Source of the DNA: an uncultured virus (IMG/VR IMGVR_UViG_3300020469_003958)
Lineage: Duplodnaviria; Heunggongvirae; Uroviricota; Caudoviricetes
IMG/VR virus record: IMGVR_UViG_3300020469_003958
Length of the DNA stretch: 20,000 nucleotides
Direction: 5' to 3' (one strand)
In this document: piece by piece, positions 6,789 to 18,512 of the stretch
How positions within the stretch are numbered: position 1 is the stretch's first letter
Layout: every line of letters begins with the position of its first letter
Program-made: the position numbers and the translations under genes
Notes under the pieces: model-generated
Told to the model about the DNA's origin: nothing
What the model saw: the letters and a program-made list of their open reading frames with translations, nothing else
Database searches by the model: none

Positions 6789-6985
6789 AGTTGTACTCCT
6801 CTTTTTTGAAGTTCTCTTTTAATCATTTGTTTTTTCTTTTTATAGGAAGGTGTGCCATATAACTTTATCAACTCATCTGTACTCTCTCCACTTAAAGTAT
6901 AATGCTTCCAAAACCATCTATTGGTCATTTTACCATTCTTATCTCTAAGATATTCTTTTGTGCTTGGTTTTAATTTTGCTGGCAT
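6785..6985 (-). CDS. Hypothetical basic protein, 66 aa
   Basis: TAATG overlap with the PAP2 gene; Lys/Arg-rich. Confidence 0.7.
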   Translation of the reverse strand: MPAKLKPSTKEYLRDKNGKMTNRWFWKHYTLSGESTDELIKLYGTPSYKKKKQMIKRELQKRGVQL

Positions 6986-7641
6986 TATATTAATTTATTA
7001 TCTTTTAAATAGTTGAACATATCGTTTCCAATCGATTTACCTAAATCTACATCTGATTGATAATGTACTTTTGCTATTACCCTACTCTTAGCTATATCCT
7101 TACCTAACTTCAAAAACTCCCACTTATATTCAGGATATTTGTGAGCCATATAGTTTGATATTAAAATACCTTGAGCAGCATGACCAGATGGATACGATGG
7201 TGAATCCGATGTTGTATCTTCAATTTTGTTAGTATCCAATTCTATATTAAGTAGGGGTGCAAGTTTGTAAGGTCTGGGTCTATTGAAGTGATATTTTAAA
7301 TCTAACACAACTCCACTAGCAGAATTTTTTAATTCTTTTACCATTTTCTCAGGGAACTTTACATCCAACTCTTTACACAATTTATTAAAAGAATCTCTTA
7401 CCTTATCCATTTCATAAGAAAATTCATCATTAGTTGGAATTTGTGATAATCTGATTAACTCTGTCATTGTTCTCAATGATTCGTTTCTATAAGGTTTTAA
7501 AGTCTTATACCCATCATATTTGAATCCAGCTAAGATAGAATCAGATACTTCAGCAATACGTTTAGCATGTTTTGGTTCAACCGAATCATTATTGGTTAAA
7601 TCATATATCTGTCCTATATTTTTGTAATCATATACTAACAT
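6985..7641 (-). CDS. PAP2-superfamily phosphatase (soluble, acid phosphatase/haloperoxidase-like)
   Basis: All three motifs present: KYHFNRPRP (KX6RP), PSYPSGH, SRVIAKVHYQSD (SRX5HX3D); no transmembrane segments evident. Confidence 0.92.
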   Translation of the reverse strand: MLVYDYKNIGQIYDLTNNDSVEPKHAKRIAEVSDSILAGFKYDGYKTLKPYRNESLRTMTELIRLSQIPTNDEFSYEMDKVRDSFNKLCKELDVKFPEKMVKELKNSASGVVLDLKYHFNRPRPYKLAPLLNIELDTNKIEDTTSDSPSYPSGHAAQGILISNYMAHKYPEYKWEFLKLGKDIAKSRVIAKVHYQSDVDLGKSIGNDMFNYLKDNKLI

Positions 7642-7654
7642 ATCTATAAATATG

Positions 7655-7996
7655 TTAATCTACAATAATAATAGTTTTTTTGATTTCCTCTTCAGATAAA
7701 ATTAAAATTAAGTTTAATTCTCCTTTAGGTAAAGACTTTGTATAAAGTATTTTTGTGTTTAATCCTACTATTGGTGTGAACAATTCTTTTGCTATTACCG
7801 AATTGTTTAGATGAGATATAATTAACATATGTTCATCAGTAGATGATACTTCAAATGAAAACTCTTGTCCATCAACTACATTAGATATTGATTCCTCAAA
7901 TATCATTTCGTATTGTGGCATAGGTTCTACAACCATTAACTCTTCTGGTTGACAAGATAATATAACGAATAATATTAATACTATATACTTTCTCAT
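7655..7996 (-). CDS. Small lipoprotein with Ig-like domain, paralog of 14090-14467
   Basis: MRKY + hydrophobic + ILSC lipobox; 'IAKELFTPIVGLNTKILYTKSLPKGELNLIL' aligns with 'VSQEKLDANEGDNILKVYVSSLENNGYTLEL'. Confidence 0.75.
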   Translation of the reverse strand: MRKYIVLILFVILSCQPEELMVVEPMPQYEMIFEESISNVVDGQEFSFEVSSTDEHMLIISHLNNSVIAKELFTPIVGLNTKILYTKSLPKGELNLILILSEEEIKKTIIIVD

Positions 7997-10062
7997 TTTA
8001 TTTTATGGTCTATTCCACCTCCATTTTGTTTTACTAATTCTGATTTTGTAACTGATAGTAATCCTAATATAGATTCAAAAGTTTGTTGTGGTGAAAAGTA
8101 AATCTTATATTGTACACCACCATTTAGATTTTGAGAACCATCAGTAGATATAGAACCTAACTTTATGTAGTTTGTTCTTTCAGCTGAAAACGATTGTAAG
8201 CTAGAAGTAGTTTCTATTCTATCAAACTCCACTCTAGTGTTATCATATCCTATTCTAAACTCAGAACCTACAATGTTATGATTGTTTTGCGGCACATCTA
8301 ATGTTACCACAAATTTATCTTCTTCCTTACTGATATCCAATAACACCTCTAATTCATTTGATTTTTGAGAAGATGATTTTCTAGCTGATGTTGATTGTAC
8401 ACCGGGTGAATTTGTTGATTGTGGTGCAGAATGTGAAAGATTTACATCACCTATAAATGAAACTTTATATTCTAAGGTTTGTATCGTATCTATAATACTA
8501 AAGGTAAAATTTGTTGATGGTGATTTATTTGTTTGTGTTTTCCAATTAGAGGTTGTAGTATTATCATATTCTGATTTAGGAACTATTCTCATTATCTCAG
8601 ACAAAGTTCCATTAAACGGAGTATCTCCACCATTTAAGAAAGATAATCCTATCTGACTATCTTGAAAATCAAAGTTACCATCTTGATTCACATCGGAATT
8701 TTGTAATTGAACCCCACTCAAATCTCCCTTATATCCTCCATTAATTCCACCACCAGCTAATTCATTAAATCCTGCAACCACATCTGCAACTGTAATATAA
8801 TCATCCATAAATTCTTCAGCTGTCCACCCCTCTATATTATCAGATGGATTATTAACAACTATTCTATGTCCTTTATATATTTCAACATCTTCAAATGAGA
8901 ACTCTGCTTGTAATCCATAATACCCATTAGCATCTCTGATATTAGATGAAAAGTTTGAGTTTGTGAAATCAAGTTCATCATCAGTAGTAATGTAATAGTT
9001 TGCCCAATATGAATCATCTGATACATAAGTTATAGTACCATCCCATAAATCAAATAATTGTAATTTTTTCAAATCGGTAAAAGTAAATCCATTTGGAAAT
9101 TCTCTTTTATCAATACCAACTTGATATCTTTTATTAGTATTATCATAATCATATAATACACACCACTCTACCGAACCACCAGTTGTAGTTGCCTTCTTAC
9201 CATCACTCATCGTAACTAAGTTTAAATAATCAGTTATATCTTTACTCCCATCATCATCTAAATAATATTTTGAATTCATTGTAGAAGTATTGTAATATGT
9301 TGAACCATCTTGTTCATTTGATGCATCATAATACACACCAAATCTATATTGTTCTGGTGATAATTGAGAATGGAATTCTAAATCTAAATCAACTTCAGGT
9401 TCTGTTGTAGTAGTTCCACCACTTGGGTCTACATTTGTCCAAGTTCCAAATTGATGATTGGAACTTATCCAATTGTAATTTGGTGAACTTGAATTTGCTG
9501 GTATTGAATAACCAAAATAGTAATAATCCCCTCCACCATATTCTTGGTATCTAAATTCAAATTCATACCATTTAGTATTATCTAAATTTGCAGTACCATA
9601 TCGATTAGAACAACAACCCCATTGAAATGTAATTGTTTGCCAAGTAGTAGTTCCTACTTCTCTATATCTAGTTTCTGATGAATCATCTGCATAAGTTTTG
9701 AAATTATAAGTTCCATTTTTATTTGGTTTGAACCAACCCGAATAGACTATTGCAAAAAATGAATTACCCCATCTCGGTGGGTGTCCTCCATTTAAACCAC
9801 CTGAACTCCATGGTGTTGCTTCACCAACATGAGTTAATGTTGTACCTGGTTGGTTTGTATCAACCATTGCATCAAACTCAGCAGTTGAATTAGCTCCACC
9901 ACTATACGATACATTATTATAACTTGATGTTGCGCCATTTCCAGAGTGAGTTTTGTAGGATTTATAATTTATTTTTCCTTCACCACTTGGAGTATAACCA
10001 GCACCAGTCTGACCAAACACTAAAGTTGGTAATAACAATATTAAAAATAACCATTTTTTCAT
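7993..10062 (-). CDS. Secreted PA14 + dockerin-like + cohesin-like protein, 689 aa
   Basis: Signal peptide (..LVFG/Q); PA14 motifs FAIVYSGWFKPNKNGTYNFKTYADD and YQEYGGG; EF-hand-like SDVNQDGNFDFQDS; C-terminal IVGSEFRIGYDNTRVEF cohesin-like strand pattern. Confidence 0.75.
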   Translation of the reverse strand: MKKWLFLILLLPTLVFGQTGAGYTPSGEGKINYKSYKTHSGNGATSSYNNVSYSGGANSTAEFDAMVDTNQPGTTLTHVGEATPWSSGGLNGGHPPRWGNSFFAIVYSGWFKPNKNGTYNFKTYADDSSETRYREVGTTTWQTITFQWGCCSNRYGTANLDNTKWYEFEFRYQEYGGGDYYYFGYSIPANSSSPNYNWISSNHQFGTWTNVDPSGGTTTTEPEVDLDLEFHSQLSPEQYRFGVYYDASNEQDGSTYYNTSTMNSKYYLDDDGSKDITDYLNLVTMSDGKKATTTGGSVEWCVLYDYDNTNKRYQVGIDKREFPNGFTFTDLKKLQLFDLWDGTITYVSDDSYWANYYITTDDELDFTNSNFSSNIRDANGYYGLQAEFSFEDVEIYKGHRIVVNNPSDNIEGWTAEEFMDDYITVADVVAGFNELAGGGINGGYKGDLSGVQLQNSDVNQDGNFDFQDSQIGLSFLNGGDTPFNGTLSEIMRIVPKSEYDNTTTSNWKTQTNKSPSTNFTFSIIDTIQTLEYKVSFIGDVNLSHSAPQSTNSPGVQSTSARKSSSQKSNELEVLLDISKEEDKFVVTLDVPQNNHNIVGSEFRIGYDNTRVEFDRIETTSSLQSFSAERTNYIKLGSISTDGSQNLNGGVQYKIYFSPQQTFESILGLLSVTKSELVKQNGGGIDHKIK

Positions 10063-10072
10063 ATTTTAAAAA

Positions 10073-10618
10073 TTACTTTTTATCTGGATTATCTATTCTG
10101 AAATATATTGAACCACCAACATACGGTCTTAACCTTCCTACATTAGTTTCCTTATCTAATAAATCATGTCTAAATCCAACATCTAAACTAAACATTTTAT
10201 CTTTAGGTGTTTTGTGTAATAGTTTTATATTAGCCCCACTAATATAGTTTTCTAAATCATATTGATATCCAAACCCTAAGAACCACTTAGGTTCTACAAC
10301 AGGTACATTAACAAACCTATCAACAGGTTTATCAACATAAACTTTTTTGATTATGGGTACTTGTGTTTCAACAATGACCTCTTTTATTACCTCCACACTT
10401 ACAGTATCTCTTTCGATTTTTGTAATGTATTTTGGTACATATATTTTTTCTTCTATGATTTTATCTACATAGATAGTATCAGTTACTATTACTTCTTTTA
10501 TTACTTCAACATATTCTATCTTAGCTGGTCTTTGGTATTGAGTTAAATACCCAATCAACCAAAACCCTATTATTAACAAACAAAGAAGCCATACGGAAAT
10601 TTCTATTTTTTTATTCAT
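10073..10618 (-). CDS. Membrane-anchored protein with V/I/E/K-rich repeats and C-terminal amphipathic beta-strands
   Basis: N-terminal hydrophobic helix; VEVIKEVIV occurs twice; C-terminal WFLGFGYQY, FSLDVGF, YVGGSIYFRI. Confidence 0.75.
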   Translation of the reverse strand: MNKKIEISVWLLCLLIIGFWLIGYLTQYQRPAKIEYVEVIKEVIVTDTIYVDKIIEEKIYVPKYITKIERDTVSVEVIKEVIVETQVPIIKKVYVDKPVDRFVNVPVVEPKWFLGFGYQYDLENYISGANIKLLHKTPKDKMFSLDVGFRHDLLDKETNVGRLRPYVGGSIYFRIDNPDKK

Positions 10619-10620
10619 AA

Positions 10621-12375
10621 TTAAAATGGTATTTTAGAACCTATCATAAACGAATTCATTATTGGAACAAATTCATTTGTACTATATATAACCGTCCATC
10701 CAATATTAAACGAAAAACTATTTGTTAATTGTATTGTGAATGGGTTTGCTAATATAACCATTAAATCTTTATTCATTGTAGAAAAATCTACAATATCATC
10801 TTCTTGCATTTGAGTATAAGATAAAGGTGCACTAACCCCAACCAATGCAGGTGTGTACATAATTCTATCAGTTATCTTAACTACATTAGAATAAACAACG
10901 TTATATCCTAACATCCAAGACTTAGGCAGGTCTCCACCCAACTGGTCTTTACCCATCATATAAGAATAGTTGATACCTAATCCAATTGTTCCCCACTTAC
11001 CTAATGGTTTCATCCTACTTGCTGATGCTGAAAATGCATTCATCTTATAGTTTCTCATATAAGAAACCGAAACACCATCTACCCAAGTAACTTGGTAATT
11101 ATCATTTAATGTTACACCTGATGTACTAAGTGAAAGGTTTGCTTGTTTTAAGTTATCATATATCATAAGGTTAGCACCATAACTTCTATCACCATAGATA
11201 GAACTCATAGATGCACCTACATTAAGAACTGTATTATAATCCAACGTTAATGCTTGTTGTTGAAGTAAATCAGCTTTTAATTGTATAGGTAGAAACTTCT
11301 TTTTCTTTTCTTCTTCCTCTTCCTCTTCTTCTTCATCACCATCCTCTTTATCTTCATCTTCCTCTTCTTCCTCTTCTTCCTCTTCGGATTCTTCTTCCTC
11401 TTCTTCATCCTCATCACTCTCTTCTTCCTCTTCTTCTTTTTCCTCCTCCTCTGATTCTTCTTCTTTTTCCTCCTCTTCGGATTCTTCGGATTCTTCTTCA
11501 GTTTCCTCACTATCTTCCTCGCTATCAGAATCCTCTTCACTATCACCTTCATCACTATCGCTATCATCATCACTATCCCCATCAGAGTCATCATCACCAT
11601 CTCCACCAGAGTCATCATCACTATCCCCATCTCCATCTCCATCAGAATCAGAATCACCATCTCCATCACCATCGGAATCGCCATCTCCACCAGAGTCATC
11701 ATCACCTCCACCATCAGAGTCACCATCTCCATCACCACCACTATCATCACCACCACTATCATCACCACCACTATCATCACCGCCGGAATCTCCTCCACTA
11801 TCTCCATCACCACCGGAATCTCCTCCACTATCTCCATCACCACCAGAACCATCACCTCCTGAATCACCGCCAGAGTCTCCTCCACTATCACCGCCAGAGT
11901 CTCCTCCGTTACCTCCTGAATCTCCACCACTATCACCGCCAGAGTCTCCTCCGTTACCTCCTGAATCTCCACCACTTCCATCTGAACCTCCACTACTTCC
12001 ACTTCCATCCGAACCACCAGAAGAACCAGAAGAACCAGAAGAACCTGATGAACTTGAATTAGTGTTGTTAGTTGCGTTGTTAGCTGTGTTAGTTGCGTTG
12101 GTAGTTTGTGTTTGTGTGGATGAACAAGGAGATAATGCTTGCCACCAAGCATATGTAGTTAATAACCATTGATGTAATTCACCATTGGTGTATTGTTGAT
12201 AAGTAAATACTCTAACTCTATTATAGAAAGATACTACTGCTGAACCCGTAGTAAAATCAGCAGTAACTACTTGTACTTCACCAGTACATCTATCCACAAA
12301 TGTCTGAGTGAAAGTTTGTGAATAACTAAGTTGTGTTATACACAGAAAGAAAAGTATCGTTAAAAGTTTTTTCAT
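10621..12375 (-). CDS. Secreted protein with long acidic low-complexity stalk and C-terminal outer-membrane beta-barrel-like domain
   Basis: Signal peptide (..LSYS/Q); small N-terminal domain with two Cys; ~250 aa of G/S/D then E; ~220 aa of alternating strands ending in Phe (IGSKIPF). Confidence 0.8.
   Translation of the reverse strand: MKKLLTILFFLCITQLSYSQTFTQTFVDRCTGEVQVVTADFTTGSAVVSFYNRVRVFTYQQYTNGELHQWLLTTYAWWQALSPCSSTQTQTTNATNTANNATNNTNSSSSGSSGSSGSSGGSDGSGSSGGSDGSGGDSGGNGGDSGGDSGGDSGGNGGDSGGDSGGDSGGDSGGDGSGGDGDSGGDSGGDGDSGGDSGGDDSGGDDSGGDDSGGDGDGDSDGGGDDDSGGDGDSDGDGDGDSDSDGDGDGDSDDDSGGDGDDDSDGDSDDDSDSDEGDSEEDSDSEEDSEETEEESEESEEEEKEEESEEEEKEEEEEESDEDEEEEEESEEEEEEEEEDEDKEDGDEEEEEEEEEKKKKFLPIQLKADLLQQQALTLDYNTVLNVGASMSSIYGDRSYGANLMIYDNLKQANLSLSTSGVTLNDNYQVTWVDGVSVSYMRNYKMNAFSASASRMKPLGKWGTIGLGINYSYMMGKDQLGGDLPKSWMLGYNVVYSNVVKITDRIMYTPALVGVSAPLSYTQMQEDDIVDFSTMNKDLMVILANPFTIQLTNSFSFNIGWTVIYSTNEFVPIMNSFMIGSKIPF
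11300..12060. repeat. Coding low-complexity region with nested tandem repeats
   Basis: 15-bp ATCACCACCACTATC x3 (11731-11775); 30-bp unit x2 (11783-11842); 45-bp unit x2 (11882-11971); 9-bp GAACCAGAA run from 12011; TCT/TCC triplet runs. Confidence 0.9.
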
Positions 12376-12378
12376 CCA

Positions 12379-13095
12379 TTAGTTTTCGAATATACCTTTT
12401 CGTATCATTCGTGCAACAATTCTTGCTGATGCAGTTTCTAATGCCTTTCGGGTAGATACTCCTATACCCGATTCTCTAAATTTGATTTCATCTACATCTA
12501 AACCTATTAACCCTTCTTGAGTTTTAACAGTCTTAGCAGTACCTAAACCAGAACCAACCAAATACCTACCTGTTTCGGCATCGGTGAACCTTACTTGTAA
12601 TCCCAAACGAGTTGTTTGTGTTTGTTTAGAACCATCTTTAAGAGAAAGAACTTCATCTTCAGATACCGAAAAATCATATATCTCAATTGTTACAAAGTAT
12701 TTAGCAAGTGTAATCTTACCCATACCATAAACCTTATTTTCAGATACACCTTTTCTTGATGCAATCCATTGAGATTTCATTCTATCTTTAATAGCTGATT
12801 TCTCCTCAACGAACTCAAATCTATTTGTCCAATCTAAGTATTCGATTACAATGTTAGTTAACCCTAATCCAACTCTACCATCCCTTAACTCAGGGTAAGT
12901 TTCATATAAATCATCAGAGATACCCACATCCAATAAAGCAACAGGCAACATATCACCCCAATAATCCGAAACATCATCAATTGATTTTTTCTTTTCGAAT
13001 TCAGCAACATATTCCTCTGCCTTAATACTTCCAACTTGTGCAAATGTGGTTTGTGTTAAAAATACACATACCACTAATAGTAATAATTTTTTCAT
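12379..13095 (-). CDS. CsgG/HfaB-like protein (curli transport channel fold)
   Basis: Signal peptide (TFA/Q); VGLGLTNIVIEYLDWTNRFEFVEE, AKYFVTIEIYDF, LGLQVRFTDAETGRYL follow the CsgG pattern (G....L...L..t.rF.vvER ... a.y...G.i..f ... v.lRlvD..TG.i). No lipobox Cys. Confidence 0.8.
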   Translation of the reverse strand: MKKLLLLVVCVFLTQTTFAQVGSIKAEEYVAEFEKKKSIDDVSDYWGDMLPVALLDVGISDDLYETYPELRDGRVGLGLTNIVIEYLDWTNRFEFVEEKSAIKDRMKSQWIASRKGVSENKVYGMGKITLAKYFVTIEIYDFSVSEDEVLSLKDGSKQTQTTRLGLQVRFTDAETGRYLVGSGLGTAKTVKTQEGLIGLDVDEIKFRESGIGVSTRKALETASARIVARMIRKGIFEN

Positions 13096-13193
13096 TATTC
13101 TTCGTTATCCAATATTTTTTTGAATTGTTCATATAATACGAACATAACTGTAACAATTGCTAATGTGAACACTATCACATCTAATAGTACCAT
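13095..13193 (-). CDS. Micro-protein, 32 aa, single transmembrane helix
   Basis: Not in track. MVLLDVIVFTLAIVTVMFVLYEQFKKILDNEE*; TAATG overlaps at both ends. Confidence 0.65.
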   Translation of the reverse strand: MVLLDVIVFTLAIVTVMFVLYEQFKKILDNEE

Positions 13194-13294
13194 TATTTTT
13201 TCCTCATATGATTGGTTAGGTTGGGATATAAACTGAATCCCAACTCAATTAACCAATTATCGATTCTTATTAATATGTCTATAATCTTTTTCAT
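13193..13294 (-). CDS. Micro-protein, 33 aa, amphipathic
   Basis: Not in track. MKKIIDILIRIDNWLIELGFSLYPNLTNHMRKK*; TAATG overlaps at both ends. Confidence 0.6.
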   Translation of the reverse strand: MKKIIDILIRIDNWLIELGFSLYPNLTNHMRKK

Positions 13295-13488
13295 TAATAT
13301 CCAAGTGTATCGAATACACCAAAGGTTGCATTATCCATTACGGATGGGTCTGATATAATATGAAACAATAGTGTACCCATTCCAAGTACCCACATTGTAA
13401 ACAACCCAGCAATCCATATCTTTAGAATAACATCCACCAGTTTATAATCTGAATGTTTACCCGTAAAAATTGTCATAAAATTCTCCAT
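13294..13488 (-). CDS. Small membrane protein, 64 aa
   Basis: Hydrophobic segment VILKIWIAGLFTMWVLGMGTLLFHII. Confidence 0.7.
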   Translation of the reverse strand: MENFMTIFTGKHSDYKLVDVILKIWIAGLFTMWVLGMGTLLFHIISDPSVMDNATFGVFDTLGY

Positions 13489-13510
13489 AGTTATTATTTT
13501 TGTAAAATTA

Positions 13511-13741
13511 TTAATGTGTATCTTTTATACTCTTAGGTAATCTCCAACCATGTATTCTCATTTGCCAAGAATACCAACCAGCAAACCCAAAGAATGATAT
13601 AACCCAAATAAGGGATAACCATTCATAGGTGTGCATTAAATCACCCAAAATTATAAAGTAAGCATTGAGGTAGATGATACCAGACAAAAATCCTATTAAT
13701 TGTCCCCATACTTTCCACCATTTCCTAAATCCATTTAACAT
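13511..13741 (-). CDS. Small membrane protein with two predicted TM helices, 76 aa
   Basis: Two hydrophobic segments, basic N- and C-termini, Trp-rich. Confidence 0.7.
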   Translation of the reverse strand: MLNGFRKWWKVWGQLIGFLSGIIYLNAYFIILGDLMHTYEWLSLIWVISFFGFAGWYSWQMRIHGWRLPKSIKDTH

Positions 13742-13775
13742 AGTCTTATAATTTAATGTAAACCAATATAACTGA

Positions 13776-14078
13776 TTACCAGTCTATCTCCTCTTCTTTT
13801 TCTTTCTTCTCCTTAACAGGCACTTCTTTTATTATAACTCTCTCTTGTGCAGGTTTTTGTTCTGGGATATTGATAATAATTTCAGGCCCAGTTACATTAA
13901 CCTCTTGTTTTTGTTCTACTTGAACTTGTTCGGTTTGCTCTTCATCAGATTCTATTCCTACAAATGATTTAACCTCATCTATAAAAACACCACCCAATGT
14001 AGTTAGTATGATACCAACTCCAGCTATTATTTGATTCTTTATTTGTGCAAAAAACCCTTCTTTTTTTTCTTCACTCAT
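13776..14078 (-). CDS. Membrane-anchored protein, 100 aa
   Basis: IIAGVGIILTTLGGVFI segment followed by an E/Q/K/V-rich tail. Confidence 0.75.
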   Translation of the reverse strand: MSEEKKEGFFAQIKNQIIAGVGIILTTLGGVFIDEVKSFVGIESDEEQTEQVQVEQKQEVNVTGPEIIINIPEQKPAQERVIIKEVPVKEKKEKEEEIDW

Positions 14079-14089
14079 AATTGTATATT

Positions 14090-14467
14090 TTAATTGTTAA
14101 CAACAATAGAAGCTATACCTATGATGTCGTGATTATCATCAGTTAACTCCAATGTATATCCATTATTTTCCAACGAAGATACATAAACCTTTAATATGTT
14201 ATCTCCTTCGTTAGCATCTAATTTCTCTTGAGATACCAAATTTTTTGAAATATCTCTAATTTTAACTCTATATGTTCCTGTGTAAGGTAATTTAATATTC
14301 ATTCTTACTTCATCAGAAACAATCGTTGATTCTACTTTTAATCCTTGAACATCTTCTATTTGTAAAGATTCAGGAACTTCTACTATATCATCAATAGGTG
14401 AGATGATATCATCATCCATACAACCCACTAACAAAAATACCGATAATAATAATAATACTTTTTTCAT
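14090..14467 (-). CDS. Small lipoprotein with Ig-like domain resembling a T9SS C-terminal sorting domain
   Basis: LLVGC lipobox followed by acidic MDDD; 'YRVKIRDISKNLV...GDNILKVYVSSLENNGYTLEL' resembles the 'v.IyD..G.lV...G.n...idvs.L..G.Y.l' pattern. Confidence 0.75.
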   Translation of the reverse strand: MKKVLLLLSVFLLVGCMDDDIISPIDDIVEVPESLQIEDVQGLKVESTIVSDEVRMNIKLPYTGTYRVKIRDISKNLVSQEKLDANEGDNILKVYVSSLENNGYTLELTDDNHDIIGIASIVVNN

Positions 14468-14469
14468 TC

Positions 14470-16200
14470 TTATTCCATTATAAAATTAATTTGTGTACCA
14501 TCTGCTTTAACACCTTCATTAACTTTGAAAGTGATTAGACCAGATGTATTTTGTAACTGAACTATTGGTGTAAAGATTAACTTATAAGGAGTACCTGTTT
14601 TAACAGTTGCCTCAAAGTTTTGGTCAAATGAACCAATATTTATTTTTCCATCTTCTTCAATGTGATTTGAGAAGTTAGTCATAGTATTACCAGTATCGAA
14701 GATAACGTTATCTAATACTAATCTTGTTCTATCGTATATGATATTAAACTGAGCTCCAATCATTTCTTCAACTTGTGAACCGATTGTGAATTCTACCAAC
14801 CCATCCTTTAACTCAGATGTTAAATCTAAATTAGCCTCCTCAGCAGTTCCACTAAACTTAGAACCAGCAGCCATACTCATTCTTGCAACTGATGCATTTG
14901 CTTGTTGTGATGTTGGTATTGCAGTACCTTCAGTATCAGGTTCCCAAGAGTGTGAGAAGTTAACATCACCCATAAGAGCGTGTACAAAGTTAAATGATTT
15001 ATTTGAATCAGTTGGTTTGAATGTTGCATCAATACCAGCAAAATAACTTCCATTCTCATCTATTGTACCAAACGTTGATTCGTTACCACCCGATTGTATT
15101 GCTCTACCTTTGTAAGTTATATAAGTTGTGTTATCACTACTAACCCCTTGTAGATAAGCAAGTATCTCATATGAATCTTGGAAATCAATCTTACCATCAA
15201 ATGCTTCATCGTGGAATATATTTGCTAGGAATGTTTGAATGTAATAATCAAATGTGGTTGTTGACCCATTAGGTGAATTACCCCCACCAATTGCCTCAGC
15301 GAATACTAATGCTAAATCAGATACAGTTACTACATTATCCATATAATCTTTTGATTGGTCAGCGTAATTCCAAACAAAATATTCTTTATCATTTTCTAAA
15401 CCAGTTATAACTGCTTGGCCAGATGCATCATATTGACCTGTTGCAACTGCTGATGCTCCATCATTTACTTGATTACCAGCACCGATATCAGATTTGTTGT
15501 AAACATTATAAGTGAAGTGAGTACCATCTCCAATATTATCATCAATGATGTTTGATAATATAGTAAGGGTTACATTACCTGCATCACCACCTTCAATGTT
15601 TGAAAGAGATAAGTTGAAATTTGAAGTACCCTTAGTAACACCTATTTGTGTATTATCTGATTTCTTTAAGTTAACCCAGTTAGCATTTAATATACTTGAA
15701 TAGTTTGAATAGTTTGAATTTGCCTTATCTTTGATTATAAACTTATATTTAATAATCTCAGAACCATCTCCTAATGCAGTTACATCTTGATATGTTATTC
15801 TTTCAACACTCCAATCAGAGTTTGTTGGATAACTACTATTAGAACCTAACCAATATGTATATTGTCCATCATAATCATCTACATCCTTATTTGAATCAGG
15901 ATTAAACTTATAACCATTCCAACTGTTAATTGCCTTTTGAGCTGATGTTGATGTTGGTTGCCAAGTTGATGATATTTTATTTAATAACTTGTTGTTGTAC
16001 TGAAAGTCAAATTGATAAAGTGATGCATCTATATCAGCACCATTTGCATCCTTTGCCTTAAAGTAATTGAACTTTACTTCTAATGTATCACCCACCTTAG
16101 TAACTGAATTTACAGATGAGTAATCAAGTTTCGCATCGGTTTGTCCGAATACGTTTAGTGTACAAAGTACACTTACGAATAATAATAAAATTTTTTTCAT
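14470..16200 (-). CDS. Secreted cohesin-like + dockerin-like + cohesin-like protein, 576 aa
   Basis: Signal peptide (NVFG/Q); N-terminal KVGDTLEV...YQFDFQYNNKLL; VTVSDLALVF, DGKIDFQDSYEILAYL, GDVNFSHS; C-terminal MIGAQFNIIYDRTRLVL...KINIGSFD; clearly paralogous to the C-terminal part of 7993-10062. Confidence 0.75.
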   Translation of the reverse strand: MKKILLLFVSVLCTLNVFGQTDAKLDYSSVNSVTKVGDTLEVKFNYFKAKDANGADIDASLYQFDFQYNNKLLNKISSTWQPTSTSAQKAINSWNGYKFNPDSNKDVDDYDGQYTYWLGSNSSYPTNSDWSVERITYQDVTALGDGSEIIKYKFIIKDKANSNYSNYSSILNANWVNLKKSDNTQIGVTKGTSNFNLSLSNIEGGDAGNVTLTILSNIIDDNIGDGTHFTYNVYNKSDIGAGNQVNDGASAVATGQYDASGQAVITGLENDKEYFVWNYADQSKDYMDNVVTVSDLALVFAEAIGGGNSPNGSTTTFDYYIQTFLANIFHDEAFDGKIDFQDSYEILAYLQGVSSDNTTYITYKGRAIQSGGNESTFGTIDENGSYFAGIDATFKPTDSNKSFNFVHALMGDVNFSHSWEPDTEGTAIPTSQQANASVARMSMAAGSKFSGTAEEANLDLTSELKDGLVEFTIGSQVEEMIGAQFNIIYDRTRLVLDNVIFDTGNTMTNFSNHIEEDGKINIGSFDQNFEATVKTGTPYKLIFTPIVQLQNTSGLITFKVNEGVKADGTQINFIME

Positions 16201-16703
16201 TCTAATAAATCTTTAATAATAGCTTCACAAACTCGTTTAAGAGCTATCGAAGCGGTTTGTTGATTAAATTTCCCGTCCTCTGCAATGACAAGTGTAGTTG
16301 TGGATATTTGTTTCGAACTTCCTCTTTGTTTCGAAGTTTTTATTACTTTCCCATCCTCAACCAATTCTCCAATTGCAGCGATTTGTGTTAGGGCAACGCC
16401 CTTTCTATAAACAGCGATAGAAGTTCCCATATTCTTTATATCAAAGAATATTAATCTAACGTTAATTCGTTTAGAAGCACCATCATATAAATCATAATCA
16501 TATTCTAAGATGATTTCTTCTAAGATATTTGTCATACCAAGTGCTAGATTACGATTACCAGCAAACTTACCCATACGAATTTCGTTGGTAACTTCACCGA
16601 TTGCAATCTCCTTTGGCTCGTAAAAATCTTGTTGTGCGTGAGTAGGTACACTCAATAGAAGAGATGTAACTACTAACAAAAACAATTTTATAGCAGCATT
16701 CAT
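16197..16703 (-). CDS. Secreted protein, divergent CsgG-like fold (putative)
   Basis: Signal peptide (THA/Q); NLALGMTNILEEII resembles RVGLGLTNIVIEYL, and TASIALKRVCEAII resembles STRKALETASARIV, of 12379-13095. Confidence 0.6.
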   Translation of the reverse strand: MNAAIKLFLLVVTSLLLSVPTHAQQDFYEPKEIAIGEVTNEIRMGKFAGNRNLALGMTNILEEIILEYDYDLYDGASKRINVRLIFFDIKNMGTSIAVYRKGVALTQIAAIGELVEDGKVIKTSKQRGSSKQISTTTLVIAEDGKFNQQTASIALKRVCEAIIKDLLE

Positions 16704-16870
16704 TTGCTATACCTTTTTTAGTTCAGGTAAAACAATTGATAAAACAATTAAAAAACGATTAATAAAACATTAGGGCAGAACCCCTAATATAACTCTATTG
16801 AGATAACGATTGAACCCAATGAGTATTAGATACTAAACATTGAGTATTTGATTATAAATATATCTAAGTT

Positions 16871-18250
16871 TTAAATACCAATGTTTTTGAGTCTTAAAAT
16901 TTCATCCTTTATCTTTTGATTAAAAGGAGTCCACTTAAAATTCTCCAACATCCACTCTCTATAATGAGCAGGTATTTGAATAATATTCTTTCCAGCATAT
17001 TTACCGAATGGCATTTTTACTGAAGGACCTACAGCGGCTTTTTCGTATGGTGATGGTTCACCTTCTATATGTAATCCAATCTCTTTAATAGGAATACCTG
17101 TTAATAGTTTCTTTCCTTCTCCATACATACTCCACCTTCCCTTATCTTCTTTGAAGTATATATCTTCAACCTTTCCAAACTTAGGAACTGCTCCTACGAA
17201 ATCTACAACCAATCCTTCTGACTTGTTAGGGTGAATACGAGTAACTCTACCAACAAACTGATACCACCAACTTAAAGAAGCAGTTGGTCTACCAGTAATA
17301 ATACAATCTAACTCTGGGTAATCAAAACCAACTGATAATATATTAACTTGAGCAATACATCTTAACCTACCAGCTTTGAAATCCTCTAAAGTTTCTTTTC
17401 TTTCTTGAGGAGGCATATCAGAGTAAACTGCTTTACAACTTGGAATCATTGTAGTTAGTTCCTTAGCTTCATCAATTGATGGCACAGCTATTAAGATAGA
17501 ACGCCTATTGTACAACTCTTCTACTTTTTTTACAATCTTTGATGAGATTTTCTGGTTTTTGTATGCTTTCTTAATAGATGAATTAGAATATTCAGCACCA
17601 GTTGTATTATAAATTAAATCACCAGTATTGAAATCATATGATTGATATTCCAATCTACTCCAAAACTTTTCTTCAACCATTTGTTGAATTTGGGCAACGT
17701 GAATAATCTTCTTAAAGAAGTTACCCTTCTTAGAACGATTAGTTAACATAACCAACTTAGAGAAAGGTTTACCATCAGCTCCCATATTGGTTTGAAGTTT
17801 TAGAGGAGTAGCAGTTAAACCTAAAGTATGAATAATACCAGCTCCCTTTAAGAACCTTCTTAACATTCCGTTAGGTTCTCTGGGAAATCTATCACACTCA
17901 TCTATAATTACCTTAGTGATACCATACTCTTTAAACTTCCAAGCTATATTAACAATAGAACCAATGGTAGCATATGTTACATCACCAATTTCTTTTTCAC
18001 CCATAGAAGCTGAATAGATGGTTGCATCACCACCTAAGTTAATAAACTTCTCATAATTTTGTTCTAATAATTCTTTTGATGGTTGGATTACCAATACTTT
18101 TTCACCCACACCTTTTGCTATATGGGCAATAACAATTGATTTACCGAAAGCAGTAGGTGCTACGATAATAGAAGGTACTGGTTTCTTTTCAGAAAAGTAT
18201 GCAATTCCCCTCTCAACGGGTTCTATTTGGTTATTTCGTAATGTTAACAT
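16871..18250 (-). CDS. Superfamily 2 DNA helicase (RadD/YejH-like) with C-terminal MPFGKY domain
   Basis: APTAFGKS (I), PSKELLEQ (Ia), IIDECD (II), LTATP (III), ILSVGFDYP (V), QFVGRVTR (VI); tail MPFGKYAG..I.QIPAHYREW (DUF3820-like). Confidence 0.92.
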   Translation of the reverse strand: MLTLRNNQIEPVERGIAYFSEKKPVPSIIVAPTAFGKSIVIAHIAKGVGEKVLVIQPSKELLEQNYEKFINLGGDATIYSASMGEKEIGDVTYATIGSIVNIAWKFKEYGITKVIIDECDRFPREPNGMLRRFLKGAGIIHTLGLTATPLKLQTNMGADGKPFSKLVMLTNRSKKGNFFKKIIHVAQIQQMVEEKFWSRLEYQSYDFNTGDLIYNTTGAEYSNSSIKKAYKNQKISSKIVKKVEELYNRRSILIAVPSIDEAKELTTMIPSCKAVYSDMPPQERKETLEDFKAGRLRCIAQVNILSVGFDYPELDCIITGRPTASLSWWYQFVGRVTRIHPNKSEGLVVDFVGAVPKFGKVEDIYFKEDKGRWSMYGEGKKLLTGIPIKEIGLHIEGEPSPYEKAAVGPSVKMPFGKYAGKNIIQIPAHYREWMLENFKWTPFNQKIKDEILRLKNIGI

Positions 18251-18387: not shown

Positions 18388-18512
18388 TATCAAAATATGT
18401 TCAAGTGAATTTCTTCTTTTAGAAGTTCGTTATACATATTCAAAGAAACCCCTTTATGGGGTTTAGTTATATTAATTAGTTATATTATATTATGAACAAA
18501 AATCAAGCAATT

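What the first reader, a model, noticed from the sequence alone, without database searches (positions are those of the whole stretch)
7655..16703. Candidate phage-encoded surface-assembly system: CsgG-like pore(s), cohesin/dockerin-like subunits, lipoproteins and a beta-barrel anchor
Seen: 13 co-oriented ORFs with gaps of at most ~35 bp or overlaps, behind one structured leader; nearly all have a signal peptide, lipobox or TM helix. They include two CsgG-like proteins, two paralogous dockerin+cohesin-like proteins, two paralogous lipoproteins, a stalked beta-barrel protein and small membrane proteins, but no curlin (CsgA/B) repeats. Known: CsgG forms the oligomeric outer-membrane channel for curli, its relative HfaB anchors the Caulobacter holdfast, and cohesin-dockerin pairs assemble cellulosomes. 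Inferred: a self-contained, non-curli export/anchoring machine that builds a modular structure on the infected cell surface (adhesion/aggregation, receptor masking, superinfection exclusion or grazer defence). I know of no described system with this composition, though I cannot check the literature.
Basis: partly seen in the sequence, partly recalled or inferred. Interest (0 to 1): 0.9.

Follow-up and report, generated by a model that had tools for sequence, protein, structure and literature searches.

The report
Phage cassette that rebuilds host envelope
A large uncultured marine phage of Flavobacterium-type bacteria carries a tightly packed block of thirteen genes for exported and membrane proteins, whose five-gene core recurs in every related phage examined; it probably installs sugar-binding proteins in the infected cell's outer envelope, but its purpose is untested.

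Summary
Window 7655-16703 (minus strand) has 13 co-oriented ORFs with gaps of 34 nt or less. All of them look exported, lipidated or membrane-anchored.

Folds recovered:
- 12379-13095 is CsgG-fold (VIA Z 13.4).
- 16197-16703 is a trimmed paralog of it (hhalign 97%).
- 10621-12375 is an N-domain, a roughly 250-residue acidic disordered linker and a 12-stranded barrel of autotransporter/FapF/KdgM type (Z 19-22).
- Two paralogs carry cohesin-like and dockerin-like modules.
- Each paralog is followed by a lipoprotein homologous to a T9SS C-terminal domain.

Distribution: five families (cohesin protein, small inner-membrane tether, both CsgG-fold proteins, barrel) co-occur in 40 of 40 dereplicated phage loci with full flanks. 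They also occur in cultured Flavobacterium phage immuto (gp013-gp019). I found no close copy in 400 sampled genomes of the likely host phylum.

Relatives use the host T9SS, so the machine is not always self-contained. In 24 of 40 loci the block adjoins endolysin genes, though not in this lineage.

Function is untested. I found no paper describing it. This scan has noted the same cassette before on other DNA (97 notes).

The parts
16767..16790 (-).
   Evidence: 9-bp stem followed by a T run. Spacer fold z -2.5. No Rfam family.
16197..16703 (-). G2: 168-aa secreted, trimmed CsgG-fold paralog
   Evidence: A 17-sequence family profile against the G1/CsgG profile gives hhalign 97.3%, E 2.7e-11 over 125 columns. 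No Pfam or PDB sequence hit. Present in 40/40 loci. Not folded here.
14470..16200 (-). COH1: 576-aa secreted protein with a cohesin-like N-domain, a dockerin-like segment and a cohesin-like C-domain
   Evidence: C-terminal profile against PDB: the top ten hits are cohesins, best 4ums at 1.7e-4. N-terminal profile: top hit is cohesin 5lxv_A at 0.0016. Orthologs reach Pfam Cohesin at 3.3e-4 and Dockerin_1 at 0.0068, both below threshold. The window protein itself has no Pfam hit.
14090..14467 (-). LP1: 125-aa lipoprotein (Cys followed by MDDD) with a T9SS-CTD-like beta-sandwich
   Evidence: Por_Secre_tail E 0.0022, 18.7 bits, below the cut-off of 27. The family against the CTDs of relatives' cohesin proteins gives hhalign 93.4%, E 2.5e-7. 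Acidic residues after the Cys fit the lipoprotein export signal.
13776..14078 (-). TM100: 100-aa bitopic inner-membrane protein with a charged periplasmic tail ending in an invariant Trp
   Evidence: Alignment. The family lies within 1.5 kb upstream of G1 in 37/40 loci and is present in 40/40. No family hit.
13511..13741 (-). tm76: small membrane protein, accessory
   Evidence: Hydrophobic segments. Present in 7/40 loci.
13294..13488 (-). tm64: small membrane protein, accessory
   Evidence: Hydrophobic segment. Present in 7/40 loci.
13193..13294 (-). 33-aa ORF overlapping both neighbours by TAATG
   Evidence: Read. Conservation not checked.
13095..13193 (-). 32-aa ORF with one hydrophobic helix, overlapping both neighbours by TAATG
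   Evidence: Read. Conservation not checked.
12379..13095 (-). G1: 238-aa secreted CsgG-fold protein, the best-conserved member, not lipidated here
   Evidence: AF2 pLDDT 83. Foldseek top hits are all CsgG, best E 5e-9. VIA Z 13.4 to 4uv3_C with 194 residues aligned; the next family is PelC at 9.8. 16 of 33 relatives hit Pfam CsgG. The hairpin is 32% charged.
10621..12375 (-). BAR: 584-aa protein with a Cys-bridged N-domain (21-85), an acidic disordered repeat linker (about 107-360) and a 12-stranded outer-membrane barrel (361-584, ending in Phe)
   Evidence: AF2: barrel blocks pLDDT 77-90, linker below 50. VIA Z 22.0 EstA, 21.6 NalP, 19.6 KdgM (rmsd 1.7), 18.5 FapF. Foldseek NanC 1.9e-7, FapF 2.4e-7. 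Tandem repeats. Starts within 1.5 kb after G1 in 38/40 loci.
10073..10618 (-). P181: membrane-anchored protein with a Val/Ile/Lys/Glu repeat region and a beta-rich C-terminus, accessory
   Evidence: Sequence. Present in 8/40 loci. No family. Not related to the 'KNRFYY' membrane protein of other lineages.
7993..10062 (-). COH2: 689-aa secreted protein with a PA14-type head, a dockerin-like Ca loop and a cohesin-like C-domain
   Evidence: Orthologs hit PA14/GLEYA down to 4.8e-18. Paralogous to COH1. Canonical D-x-N-x-D-G...D loop at residue 457. Profile hits to dockerins and cohesins.
7655..7996 (-). LP2: 113-aa lipoprotein (Cys followed by QPEE), overlapping COH2 by 4 nt
   Evidence: Lipobox. 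Family membership through intermediates.

Best explanation
The block is a phage-specific module that remodels the host envelope.

Shown:
- All products carry export or membrane signals.
- The folds are those listed under parts.
- Five families travel together: a cohesin protein, TM100, G1, BAR and G2.

Inferred, step by step:
1. The host BAM machinery inserts BAR's 12-stranded barrel into the outer membrane. BAR's disulfide-bridged N-domain and long acidic tether stay in the periplasm, as in FapF.
2. G1 and its trimmed paralog G2 form ring-like assemblies under or at the outer membrane, next to the barrel. This would resemble CsgG-fold partners of barrels such as PelC with PelB or LptE with LptD. 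Because the window's G1 has no lipid anchor and polar hairpins, it would depend on BAR or G2 for its place.
3. TM100 ties the assembly to the inner membrane through a tail that ends in an invariant Trp.
4. COH1 (cohesin, dockerin-like, cohesin) and COH2 (PA14, dockerin-like, cohesin) bind each other through cohesin-dockerin contacts. They are the only carriers of these modules in a complete relative genome.
5. They are held at the cell surface by the lipoproteins LP1 and LP2. These carry a Bacteroidota surface-export signal and are homologous to the T9SS sorting domain that is fused to the cohesin protein in other lineages.

The output would be a coat of fast-evolving sugar-binding proteins on the infected cell and its debris. 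My committed guess for its use is to occupy surface glycans, so that further phages and the phage's own progeny do not adsorb to the infected cell and its debris. Making cells stick to neighbours or particles is the close second.

How COH crosses the outer membrane in this lineage is open.
For: - Phage origin and abundance: 4374 close homologs; 394 of 600 candidate stretches confirmed.
- Co-conservation: COH, TM100, BAR and G2 are each present in 40 of 40 dereplicated loci with full flanks. BAR follows G1 in 38/40 and TM100 precedes it in 37/40.
- Folds: G1; G2; BAR.
- Cohesin and dockerin. Relatives are above the Pfam cut-off (Cohesin in 9 of 12, Por_Secre_tail in 12 of 12 first-position proteins; immuto gp015).
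- The lipoprotein and the CTD replace each other: the lipoprotein is found in 16 of 18 layout-A loci and 0 of 22 layout-B loci. They are homologous: hhalign 93.4%.
- Surface-export signal: 35 of 40 distinct lipoproteins have two or more Asp/Glu within six residues after the Cys. The published signal is K-(D/E)2 or Q-A-(D/E)2 (PMC5080379, abstract).
- Swappable heads: PA14, C-type lectin with LamG, and GEVED.
- Conservation gradient: median identity to relatives is 82% for G1, 36-52% for the COH proteins.
- In the complete relative G001, the dockerin-like and cohesin-like profiles hit only the two cassette proteins, and no T9SS CTD is found.
- In a sister lineage, polysaccharide-modification genes lie directly upstream.
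- FapF has the same three-part build with a periplasmic N-terminus (PMC5557850, passages).
Against: - No experiment or expression data exist.
- The window's COH proteins have no recognised signal for crossing the outer membrane, so they may stay in the periplasm.
- G1's charged hairpins and missing lipid anchor argue against a CsgG-type channel.
- The window's own COH, LP, G1 and G2 hit no Pfam, PHROGs or NCBIfam family at threshold. The module calls therefore rest on profiles built from relatives, and the dockerin alignment was selected with a motif.
- 24 of 40 loci lie next to endolysin genes, which fits a lysis role as well.
- PADLOC finds nothing resembling known exclusion or defence proteins.
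- BAR's best structural matches are autotransporters, so its N-domain could instead be displayed outside the cell.
Confidence: 0.45

Rival explanations
1. Lysis accessory. The core (TM100 spanning the periplasm from the inner membrane, plus G1, G2 and BAR at the outer membrane) would be the outer-membrane step of lysis or its timer in Bacteroidota phages, standing in for spanins. The cohesin and lectin proteins would be add-ons.
For: - Endolysin genes (PG_binding_1 + GH19; phrog_181 at 1.4e-72) lie within -7/+8 kb of G1 in 24 of 40 loci. They sit inside the block in L022, L032 and L074.
- Small membrane proteins with no family hit, which I guess could be holins only from their size and their place beside endolysin genes, lie within -7/+8 kb of G1 in 17 of 40 loci.
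- A second lysin family is present in 8 of 40 loci.
- Chance expectation for a 15-kb span in 100-270 kb genomes is roughly 5-15% (my estimate).
- Melnitz authors proposed a lysis-timing role for phage CsgG (PMC9004378, passages).
- GH19 with a peptidoglycan-binding domain is the flavophage endolysin type (PMC8776804, passages).
Against: - In the window's own lineage the block is not near lysis genes. In the complete relative G001 the only PG_binding_1 protein (with Amidase_2) lies at 169.8 kb and the block at about 25-33 kb.
- The window's neighbours are a helicase, PhoH and nucleotide-metabolism genes.
- The cohesin protein is as universal as the other core members (40/40), so it is not an add-on.
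- TM100 has no predicted coiled coil like i-spanins, judged by eye.
- Nine kb is large for this task.
Confidence: 0.2
2. Periplasmic assembly. Nothing reaches the surface. The CsgG/LpoB-fold proteins, TM100 and the cohesin-dockerin-lectin proteins would form a periplasmic scaffold that binds peptidoglycan or periplasmic glycans and alters envelope biogenesis during infection.
For: - The window's COH proteins lack a T9SS CTD, and none is found in G001.
- G1's hairpins are polar.
- Bacterial relatives of the G1 domain are periplasmic modules fused to Ser/Thr kinases, caspases or C1q.
- LpoB and TolB_N families are hit by relatives.
Against: - Relatives send the cohesin protein out through the T9SS (CTD in 12 of 12).
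- The lipoproteins carry the acidic surface-export motif (35 of 40).
- BAR is an outer-membrane barrel.
- PA14 and C-type lectin heads are typical of surface adhesins (general knowledge).
Confidence: 0.15
3. Nutrient capture. Together with the adjacent phage-encoded TonB-dependent receptor, the lipoproteins and glycan-binding proteins would work like the surface glycan-binding proteins of a polysaccharide-utilisation locus, feeding the infected cell.
For: - A full-length SusC-like receptor (906 aa; CarbopepD_reg, Plug, barrel) lies next to the block in the window and in 7 of 11 close relatives.
- Surface lipoproteins and carbohydrate-binding heads are present.
Against: - The receptor accompanies the block only in this sublineage. 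The family was found in 5 of 88 loci by my profile.
- It is divergently transcribed, beyond the helicase gene.
- No SusD-like gene was seen beside it in L001.
- The core is conserved without any receptor.
Confidence: 0.08

Closest known systems
Flavobacterium phage vB_FspM_immuto (NC_055915), gp013-gp019
   Same: A cultured phage with the same core in order: lectin protein, cohesin+CTD protein (gp015), TM100-like (gp016), G1 at 57% identity (gp017), BAR (gp018) and G2 (gp019).
   Different: - Layout B: the cohesin protein carries a T9SS sorting domain, there is no lipoprotein, and G2 lies downstream.
- The genes are annotated only as hypothetical, cohesin or lectin proteins.
- None of the papers citing the phage that I listed is about this block (listing only).
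Curli channel CsgG (type VIII secretion; PDB 4uv2, 4uv3, 6l7c)
   Same: G1 has the same fold (Z 13.4, 194 residues aligned to the membrane form). The conserved Tyr-Pro loop aligns with the CsgG segment that I recall as the constriction loop (alignment; the role of the loop is recalled).
   Different: - No lipid anchor in the window's G1.
- Charged hairpins.
- No CsgE, CsgF, CsgA or CsgB.
- The window protein does not reach Pfam CsgG.
- Oligomer state not tested.
csgG-csgF clusters of pelagimyophages (PMC7029224) and Methylophilales phage Melnitz (PMC9004378)
   Same: They are phage-encoded CsgG-family proteins in marine phages with unknown function. Sibling capture, uptake and lysis timing have been proposed (passages read).
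   Different: - Those are canonical CsgG with CsgF in phages of Proteobacteria.
- Here there is no CsgF, and there are two divergent CsgG-fold proteins, a barrel, cohesin proteins and a tether, in phages of Bacteroidota-type hosts.
FapF (Pseudomonas amyloid exporter) and type Va autotransporter barrels
   Same: BAR has a 12-stranded barrel (Z 18.5 FapF, 21.6 NalP, 22.0 EstA). As in FapF, an N-terminal domain is joined to the barrel by a disordered linker (PMC5557850, passages).
   Different: - No sequence similarity.
- The linker is about 250 residues against 42.
- The N-domain is a small beta/alpha domain with a conserved Cys pair, not a coiled coil.
- Trimer state and plug helix are not shown.
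- No FapA-E partners.
Cohesin-dockerin assemblies (cellulosomal and non-cellulosomal)
   Same: Cohesin-like and dockerin-like modules lie in secreted proteins that could bind one another.
   Different: - No enzymes are attached.
- The dockerin-like part has only one canonical Ca loop in the window.
- Both module types sit in the same proteins.
- The carrier is a phage of a Gram-negative host.
Phage-encoded T9SS cargo ('Cryophage', PMC7468147)
   Same: Phage genes with T9SS sorting domains, including a variable PA14 protein, are presumed to be secreted by the host system (passages).
   Different: - That paper mentions neither cohesin nor CsgG (0 occurrences each).
- In the window the sorting domain is replaced by separate lipoproteins.
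PelC-PelB and LptE-LptD (a CsgG-fold-like lipoprotein paired with an outer-membrane barrel)
   Same: The G1 model matches PelC (Z 9.8) and LptE (Z 8.6). G1 is always encoded next to a barrel.
   Different: - The scores are well below those for CsgG.
- BAR's barrel has 12 strands and is too small to hold G1.
- Pairing is inferred from gene order only.

Membership tests
CsgG/HfaB family (PF03783; curli-type channel) | CsgG alpha/beta fold | tested here: met
   G1: Foldseek top hits are all CsgG, best E 5e-9. VIA Z 13.4-13.6, standing above PelC at 9.8. G2 is supported only by profile homology to the G1 family.
CsgG/HfaB family (PF03783; curli-type channel) | Sequence match to the family model above its cut-off | tested here: not met
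   The window's G1 and G2 have no Pfam hit at E<=0.1. 16 of 33 homologs of G1 do match, best 3.7e-23. The profile against PDB CsgG gives only E 0.047.
CsgG/HfaB family (PF03783; curli-type channel) | N-terminal lipid anchor (lipobox Cys) | tested here: not met
   The window's G1 has a signal-peptidase-I type end (..TFAQ|V), where bacterial relatives have G-C. 7 of 71 distinct phage G1 sequences have a lipobox-like motif.
CsgG/HfaB family (PF03783; curli-type channel) | Amphipathic transmembrane hairpins able to face lipid | tested here: inconclusive
   The model has long hairpins that align with the membrane form (194 residues aligned to 4uv3_C, against 169 to the pre-pore form). The distal hairpin is 32% charged (range 23-41%), with near-invariant E146-D147-E148.
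CsgG/HfaB family (PF03783; curli-type channel) | Oligomeric (nonameric) ring | not testable with these tools
CsgG/HfaB family (PF03783; curli-type channel) | Curli partners CsgA/B/E/F nearby | tested here: not met
   No such Pfam or NCBIfam family hit among the 28 window proteins.
Cohesin (PF00963) | Match to the cohesin model or to solved cohesins | tested here: inconclusive
   The window proteins have no Pfam hit. Family profiles hit solved cohesins first (1.7e-4; 0.0016). Relatives are above the cut-off in 9 of 12 layout-B and 1 of 4 layout-A proteins scanned.
Dockerin type I (PF00404) | Two tandem Ca-binding loop-helix repeats | tested here: inconclusive
   COH2 has one canonical loop and COH1 a degenerate one; the first repeat keeps only the helix. 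Pfam hits in relatives are all below the cut-off (E 4e-4 to 7e-3). A motif-selected profile hits solved dockerins first (8.7e-6), mixed with EF-hand proteins.
T9SS cargo (C-terminal sorting domain, PF18962) | CTD at the C-terminus of the secreted protein | tested here: not met
   The window's COH proteins have none, and there is no match in the complete relative G001. The CTD-like fold sits in separate N-terminally lipidated proteins. Layout-B relatives do meet this feature (12 of 12).
Type Va autotransporter | C-terminal 12-stranded translocator barrel | tested here: met
   VIA Z 22.0 (EstA, 270 aligned), 21.6 (NalP, 237 aligned, rmsd 3.0), 19.9 (AIDA-I).
Type Va autotransporter | Sequence membership and a pore helix directly before the barrel, with the passenger displayed outside | tested here: inconclusive
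   No Pfam hit for BAR or for 9 orthologs. The only helix just before the barrel (348-354) has low confidence. The conserved Cys pair in the N-domain argues for periplasmic folding (inference).
FapF-type amyloid exporter | Periplasmic N-domain, disordered linker and plugged 12-stranded barrel | tested here: inconclusive
   The architecture matches (against PMC5557850). Z 18.5. There is no sequence similarity, and the plug, trimer state and Fap partners are not shown.
Two-component spanin | An inner-membrane protein and a small outer-membrane lipoprotein encoded with holin and endolysin | tested here: not met
   In this lineage the endolysin is about 137 kb from the block. The lipoproteins are beta-sandwich, CTD-like proteins. 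Other lineages do place the block beside lysis genes (24 of 40).

The most novel reading that the evidence does not exclude
The five-gene core is a previously unrecognised, phage-only trans-envelope apparatus of Bacteroidota phages. It would consist of an inner-membrane tether, a pair of CsgG-fold rings and a FapF/autotransporter-like barrel. Together these would export or anchor a self-assembling cohesin-dockerin lattice with exchangeable lectin heads. The phage would thus build its own coat on the dying cell and its debris to control who adsorbs there. Anchoring would have switched in evolution between the host T9SS and a split-off lipoprotein.
Probability: 0.3. Interest if true: 0.85.

Novelty: categorically new. 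Interest (0 to 1): 0.7.

Why it matters
If the module works as a unit, phages of one of the ocean's and lakes' main groups of polysaccharide-degrading bacteria carry their own outer-membrane assembly kit. That is a class of phage function not covered by current annotation: the core proteins hit no PHROGs family.

It is abundant. There are thousands of close homologs of one member in metagenomes, and hundreds of phage contigs carry it. This makes it relevant to how infected cells interact with other phages, neighbouring cells and particles.

It also offers natural examples of three things:
- a CsgG-fold protein without a lipid anchor;
- a FapF-like barrel with a very long acidic tether;
- a T9SS sorting domain turned into a surface lipoprotein.

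A cultured phage-host pair (immuto with Flavobacterium sp. LMO8) makes all of this directly testable.

Tried and rejected
- Megablast of the window against GenBank phages found no match.
- No whole genome is held for the window.
- phmmer of G1 and G2 against PDB sequences gave nothing meaningful.
- G2 profiles against PDB sequences gave nothing.
- A first shallow G2 profile against A1 gave hhalign 3.8%. It was superseded by the 17-sequence profile.
- A1 was too diverse for a locus scan, so I used A3 instead.
- The BAR C-domain profile against PDB sequences gave no hit. Against 5.8 billion proteins it gave 88 hits, none named and none with a Pfam family. hhalign against the DUF481-like barrel of other lineages gave 0.5%.
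- The BAR N-domain profile against PDB gave nothing meaningful. The N-domain was not folded alone, so I cannot say it has no known fold.
- My own strand count for BAR from hydrophobic alternation was crude, giving 8 segments. It is superseded by the model.
- P181 against the 'KNRFYY' membrane protein family gave hhalign 0.7%, so they are not related.
- PADLOC on 13 window proteins gave nothing below E 0.004.
- Rfam at gathering threshold gave nothing in the window.
No oligomer or pairing was tested.
The small word shares in six RNA runs (0.07-0.17) are no evidence of expression.
- A note look-up for this genome returned nothing.
- I considered and rejected a virion-component reading for the lectin and cohesin proteins, because all have Sec signal peptides (inference).
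- I considered PorP/SprF-type barrels for BAR. No Pfam hit was seen, which does not exclude a distant relation.

Full report
**What is in the window**

The minus strand is coding almost throughout. Outside the finding lie typical large-phage genes:
- an HD phosphohydrolase, a 5'-nucleotidase, PhoH and dCMP deaminase (PHROGs);
- a soluble PAP2-type phosphatase (6985-7641);
- an SF2 helicase (16871-18250; phrog_16 at 1.3e-64);
- on the plus strand, the start of a SusC-like TonB-dependent receptor (18492 onward).

The finding itself is 13 co-oriented ORFs with a largest gap of 34 nt and five overlapping junctions. Two of them are 32-33-aa ORFs that I read by eye. The 167-nt spacer upstream holds a terminator-like hairpin directly after the helicase gene. 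It folds only moderately better than shuffles (z -2.5) and matches no Rfam family. I therefore read the 'structured leader' as the helicase terminator plus an AT-rich spacer. At the other end the next gene follows after 13 nt, so no terminator sets the block's 3' limit.

**It is a phage**

- Megablast finds no GenBank phage.
- The 238-aa protein (G1) pulls out 11 IMG/VR loci at 77-96% identity with the same gene order. One lies on a 252,603-bp contig that CheckV rates 100% complete.
- Near-identical DNA (93-95% of sampled words) is in 14 DNA runs, many labelled viral metagenome.
- G1 has 4374 homologs at E<=0.001 in the 5.8-billion-protein set. The best 120 are all 85% identical or more, and none has a Pfam family.
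- One cultured phage has it: Flavobacterium phage vB_FspM_immuto, gp017 at 57% identity.

In bacterial genomes the picture is different.
- A pattern scan of 185,579 species representatives confirmed 2 loci out of 34 stretches. Both are low-GC, phage-like contigs inside metagenome bins that carry the same block, and one of them (L093) also has an endolysin and tail-collar-like genes beside it.
- Among 401 genomes sampled from the phylum of one of those bins, only that bin had a close match. Five others had weak matches (E 1e-4 to 8e-6). These five are ordinary 316-332-aa CsgG-family proteins (PF03783 at 1e-28 to 1e-41).
- So this is not a host operon in the genomes searched.

**G1 and G2**

- The window's G1 hits no Pfam, PHROGs or NCBIfam family.
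- The protein atlas pointed to CsgG/HfaB clusters (0.94).
- A search of 1.84 billion representatives gave 240 hits at E<=0.001.
- Of 33 aligned full-length homologs, 16 match Pfam CsgG (best 3.7e-23) and 8 match LpoB.
- The family profile's best PDB sequences are CsgG, but only at E 0.047.
- The AF2 model (pLDDT 83, pTM 0.76) matches CsgG in every top Foldseek row (best E 5e-9).
- VIA gives Z 13.4-13.6, with 194 residues aligned to the membrane-bound form. This is well above PelC (9.8), LptE (8.6) and TraT (7.5).
- In BFVD the best match is a phage protein named CsgG (1.7e-9).

G2 (168 aa) looked unrelated by BLASTP (E 0.15) and with a shallow 8-sequence profile (3.8%). A 17-sequence profile including freshwater relatives aligns to the G1 family at 97.3%, E 2.7e-11 over 125 columns. 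G2 lacks the segment around helix 2. G2 was not folded.

Three things weaken the word 'pore'.
- Bacterial relatives have a G-C lipobox where the window's G1 has a signal-peptidase-I site. Only 7 of 71 distinct phage G1 sequences have a lipobox-like motif.
- Across 70 distinct G1 sequences the protruding hairpin (residues 143-164) is 32% charged, with a near-invariant Glu-Asp-Glu that puts acidic residues on both faces. The second hairpin region is 30% charged.
- The same domain occurs in bacteria fused to Ser/Thr kinases, caspase domains and C1q. There it is a periplasmic module.

**BAR**

The 584-aa protein has a signal peptide and an N-domain with an invariant Cys pair, Gly and Trp. The middle is a low-complexity stretch made of tandem repeats, which is acidic in marine relatives and Ser/Thr/Asn/Pro-rich in others. 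The C-terminal part is a conserved region of about 220 residues ending in Phe or Leu.

- Sequence methods gave nothing. The atlas pointed to small outer-membrane barrels.
- The structure job could be run only late. The model has a confident C-domain (pLDDT 77-90) of twelve long strands, a disordered 107-360 and a modest N-domain (60-79).
- Foldseek finds NanC (1.9e-7), FapF (2.4e-7), KdgM and autotransporter barrels.
- VIA over 48,161 chains gives EstA 22.0, NalP 21.6, AIDA-I 19.9, KdgM 19.6 (rmsd 1.7 over 166 residues), NanC 18.6 and FapF 18.5.

So BAR carries a 12-stranded outer-membrane barrel. Its overall build (N-domain, disordered linker, autotransporter-like barrel) is that of FapF, whose N-terminus stays in the periplasm (PMC5557850, passages). 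The conserved disulfide pair makes the periplasmic placement more likely than autotransporter-style display. That is inference.

**The cohesin/dockerin proteins and their lipoproteins**

- The 689- and 576-aa proteins are paralogs over their last 290 residues (E 1e-16).
- Neither hits Pfam. Orthologs of the larger one have PA14/GLEYA heads (down to 4.8e-18).
- A profile of the C-terminal domains hits solved cohesins in its first ten rows (best 1.7e-4).
- A profile of the N-terminal 200 residues of the 576-aa family also hits a cohesin first (0.0016; 8 of 11 rows are cohesin-type).
- The dockerin-like segment has one canonical Ca loop in the 689-aa protein and a degenerate one in the other. A profile of such segments hits solved dockerins first (8.7e-6), but I chose the rows with a motif, and EF-hand proteins are mixed in.

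In freshwater relatives:
- The first large protein reaches Pfam Cohesin above its cut-off in 9 of 12 and carries a T9SS sorting domain in 12 of 12.
- The second large protein has C-type lectin plus LamG (6 of 12), C-type lectin alone (1), PA14 (1), GEVED (1) or nothing recognised (3).
- Immuto gp015 is Cohesin plus Por_Secre_tail.

The two window lipoproteins show no mutual BLASTP similarity. They fall in one family whose profile aligns to those sorting domains at 93.4%, E 2.5e-7. One member reaches the Pfam cut-off (27.0 bits).

The lipoprotein and the fused sorting domain replace each other. The lipoprotein is present in 16 of 18 loci with G2 upstream and in 0 of 22 with G2 downstream. Of the 40 distinct lipoproteins, 35 have two or more Asp/Glu in the six residues after the Cys. 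This fits the Bacteroidota surface-export signal K-(D/E)2 or Q-A-(D/E)2 (PMC5080379, abstract).

In the complete relative, the cohesin-like and dockerin-like profiles each match only the two cassette proteins, and no sorting domain is found.

**The conserved core**

I called ORFs in 88 loci and built iterated profiles from the window proteins. After dereplicating G1 at 95%, 51 loci remained. Forty of these had at least 5 kb upstream and 5.5 kb downstream, and I dropped the other 11 for lack of flank. In those 40:

| Feature | Loci |
|---|---|
| Cohesin protein, TM100, BAR and G2 (each) | 40 of 40 |
| BAR starts within 1.5 kb after G1 | 38 of 40 |
| TM100 ends within 1.5 kb before G1 | 37 of 40 |

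- TM100 has a conserved N-terminus and membrane helix, a low-complexity tail with a Pro-Val-Ile-Asn-Ile motif and an invariant C-terminal Trp.
- P181, tm76 and tm64 are lineage-specific (7-8 of 40).
- G1 is the most conserved member (median 82% identity to 12 relatives). The cohesin proteins are the least conserved (36-52%).

**Link to lysis**

- Endolysin genes (PG_binding_1 + GH19; phrog_181) lie within -7/+8 kb of G1 in 24 of 40 loci (8 of 18 and 16 of 22 by layout). They sit inside the block in some loci.
- A second lysin family and small membrane proteins often accompany them. The small proteins hit no family, and calling them holin-like is only my guess from their size and place.
- In the window's lineage this link is absent. 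The complete relative has its PG_binding_1 + Amidase_2 gene at 169.8 kb and the block at about 25-33 kb.
- In another marine sublineage the block is preceded by UDP-glucose dehydrogenase, glycosyltransferase, methyltransferase and epimerase genes.

**Reading**

I favour an envelope-remodelling module that ends in a coat of glycan-binding proteins (0.45). A lysis-accessory role (0.2), a purely periplasmic scaffold (0.15) and nutrient capture with the neighbouring receptor (0.08) are the rivals.

- No binding, location or timing was tested.
- How the window's cohesin proteins would cross the outer membrane is unexplained.

**Literature**

- Phage csgG-csgF clusters are described for pelagimyophages and for Melnitz, with function unknown (PMC7029224, PMC9004378; passages).
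- Phage T9SS cargo, including a PA14 protein, is described for 'Cryophage', with no mention of cohesin or CsgG (PMC7468147; passages).
- A search for CsgG, phage and Flavobacterium gave 7 papers, none on this by title.
- A search for bacteriophage, cohesin domain, dockerin, Bacteroidetes and outer membrane gave 28 papers holding four of the five terms, none on this among the 15 titles listed.
- A search for CsgG, cohesin and phage gave 0 papers.
- The library lacks most subscription journals. I saw no supplements.

**Earlier notes of this scan**

Earlier notes describe the same cassette on other DNA: 97 notes in at least 79 genomes. I had found immuto and the CsgG fold before reading them. They gave me the leads to the three papers and the lysis-slot idea, all of which I checked.

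Noticed in passing
window 18492-20000 (+); full length in L001:2172-4892 (-): The phage encodes a complete SusC-like TonB-dependent receptor (906 aa in the relative; CarbopepD_reg, Plug and barrel domains). It is conserved at 61-93% identity in 7 of 11 close relatives, and no SusD-like gene was seen beside it.
   Followed up: partly
window 6985-7641 (-): A PAP2-superfamily phosphatase with no signal peptide or membrane helix directly follows the block. The family lies near the block in 8 of 40 loci.
   Followed up: partly
window 11001-12000; nested ORF 11277-12152 (-): GC jumps to 0.43 with GC skew -0.59. The cause is the tandem-repeat acidic linker of the barrel protein. The 291-aa nested ORF is an out-of-frame reading of these repeats.
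   Followed up: partly
L010:47-6295 (also L018-L020 by gene sizes): In a sister marine lineage, genes for UDP-glucose dehydrogenase, two glycosyltransferases, a methyltransferase and an NAD-dependent epimerase lie directly upstream of the block, in place of the helicase and receptor.
   Followed up: partly
proteins P0206, P0228, P0229, P0258, P0261, P0266, P0179: The G1-like CsgG/LpoB-type domain occurs in bacteria or metagenomes fused to Ser/Thr protein kinases, to caspase (Peptidase_C14) domains and, once, to a C1q domain.
   Followed up: partly
L094:7815-8507; P0132: Some phage G1 proteins do carry a lipobox (for example ..LFAC), so lipidation has been gained or lost within the phage family.
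   Followed up: partly
window 4229-5371 (-): A 380-aa Gly/Asn-rich protein with no family hit is conserved at 41-55% identity in relatives.
   Followed up: no
G1 model: The decameric plasmid surface-exclusion lipoprotein TraT appears among weaker structural matches (Z 7.4-7.5). This is a possible functional hint, but it is within the range of common arrangements.
   Followed up: no
L027:12348-13558 and 36 other loci: Layout-B blocks are often followed by a roughly 150-aa secreted protein with an 'IDDVGDGWK' motif (37 of 88 loci). In 13 loci a DUF481-type outer-membrane barrel follows as well.
   Followed up: partly
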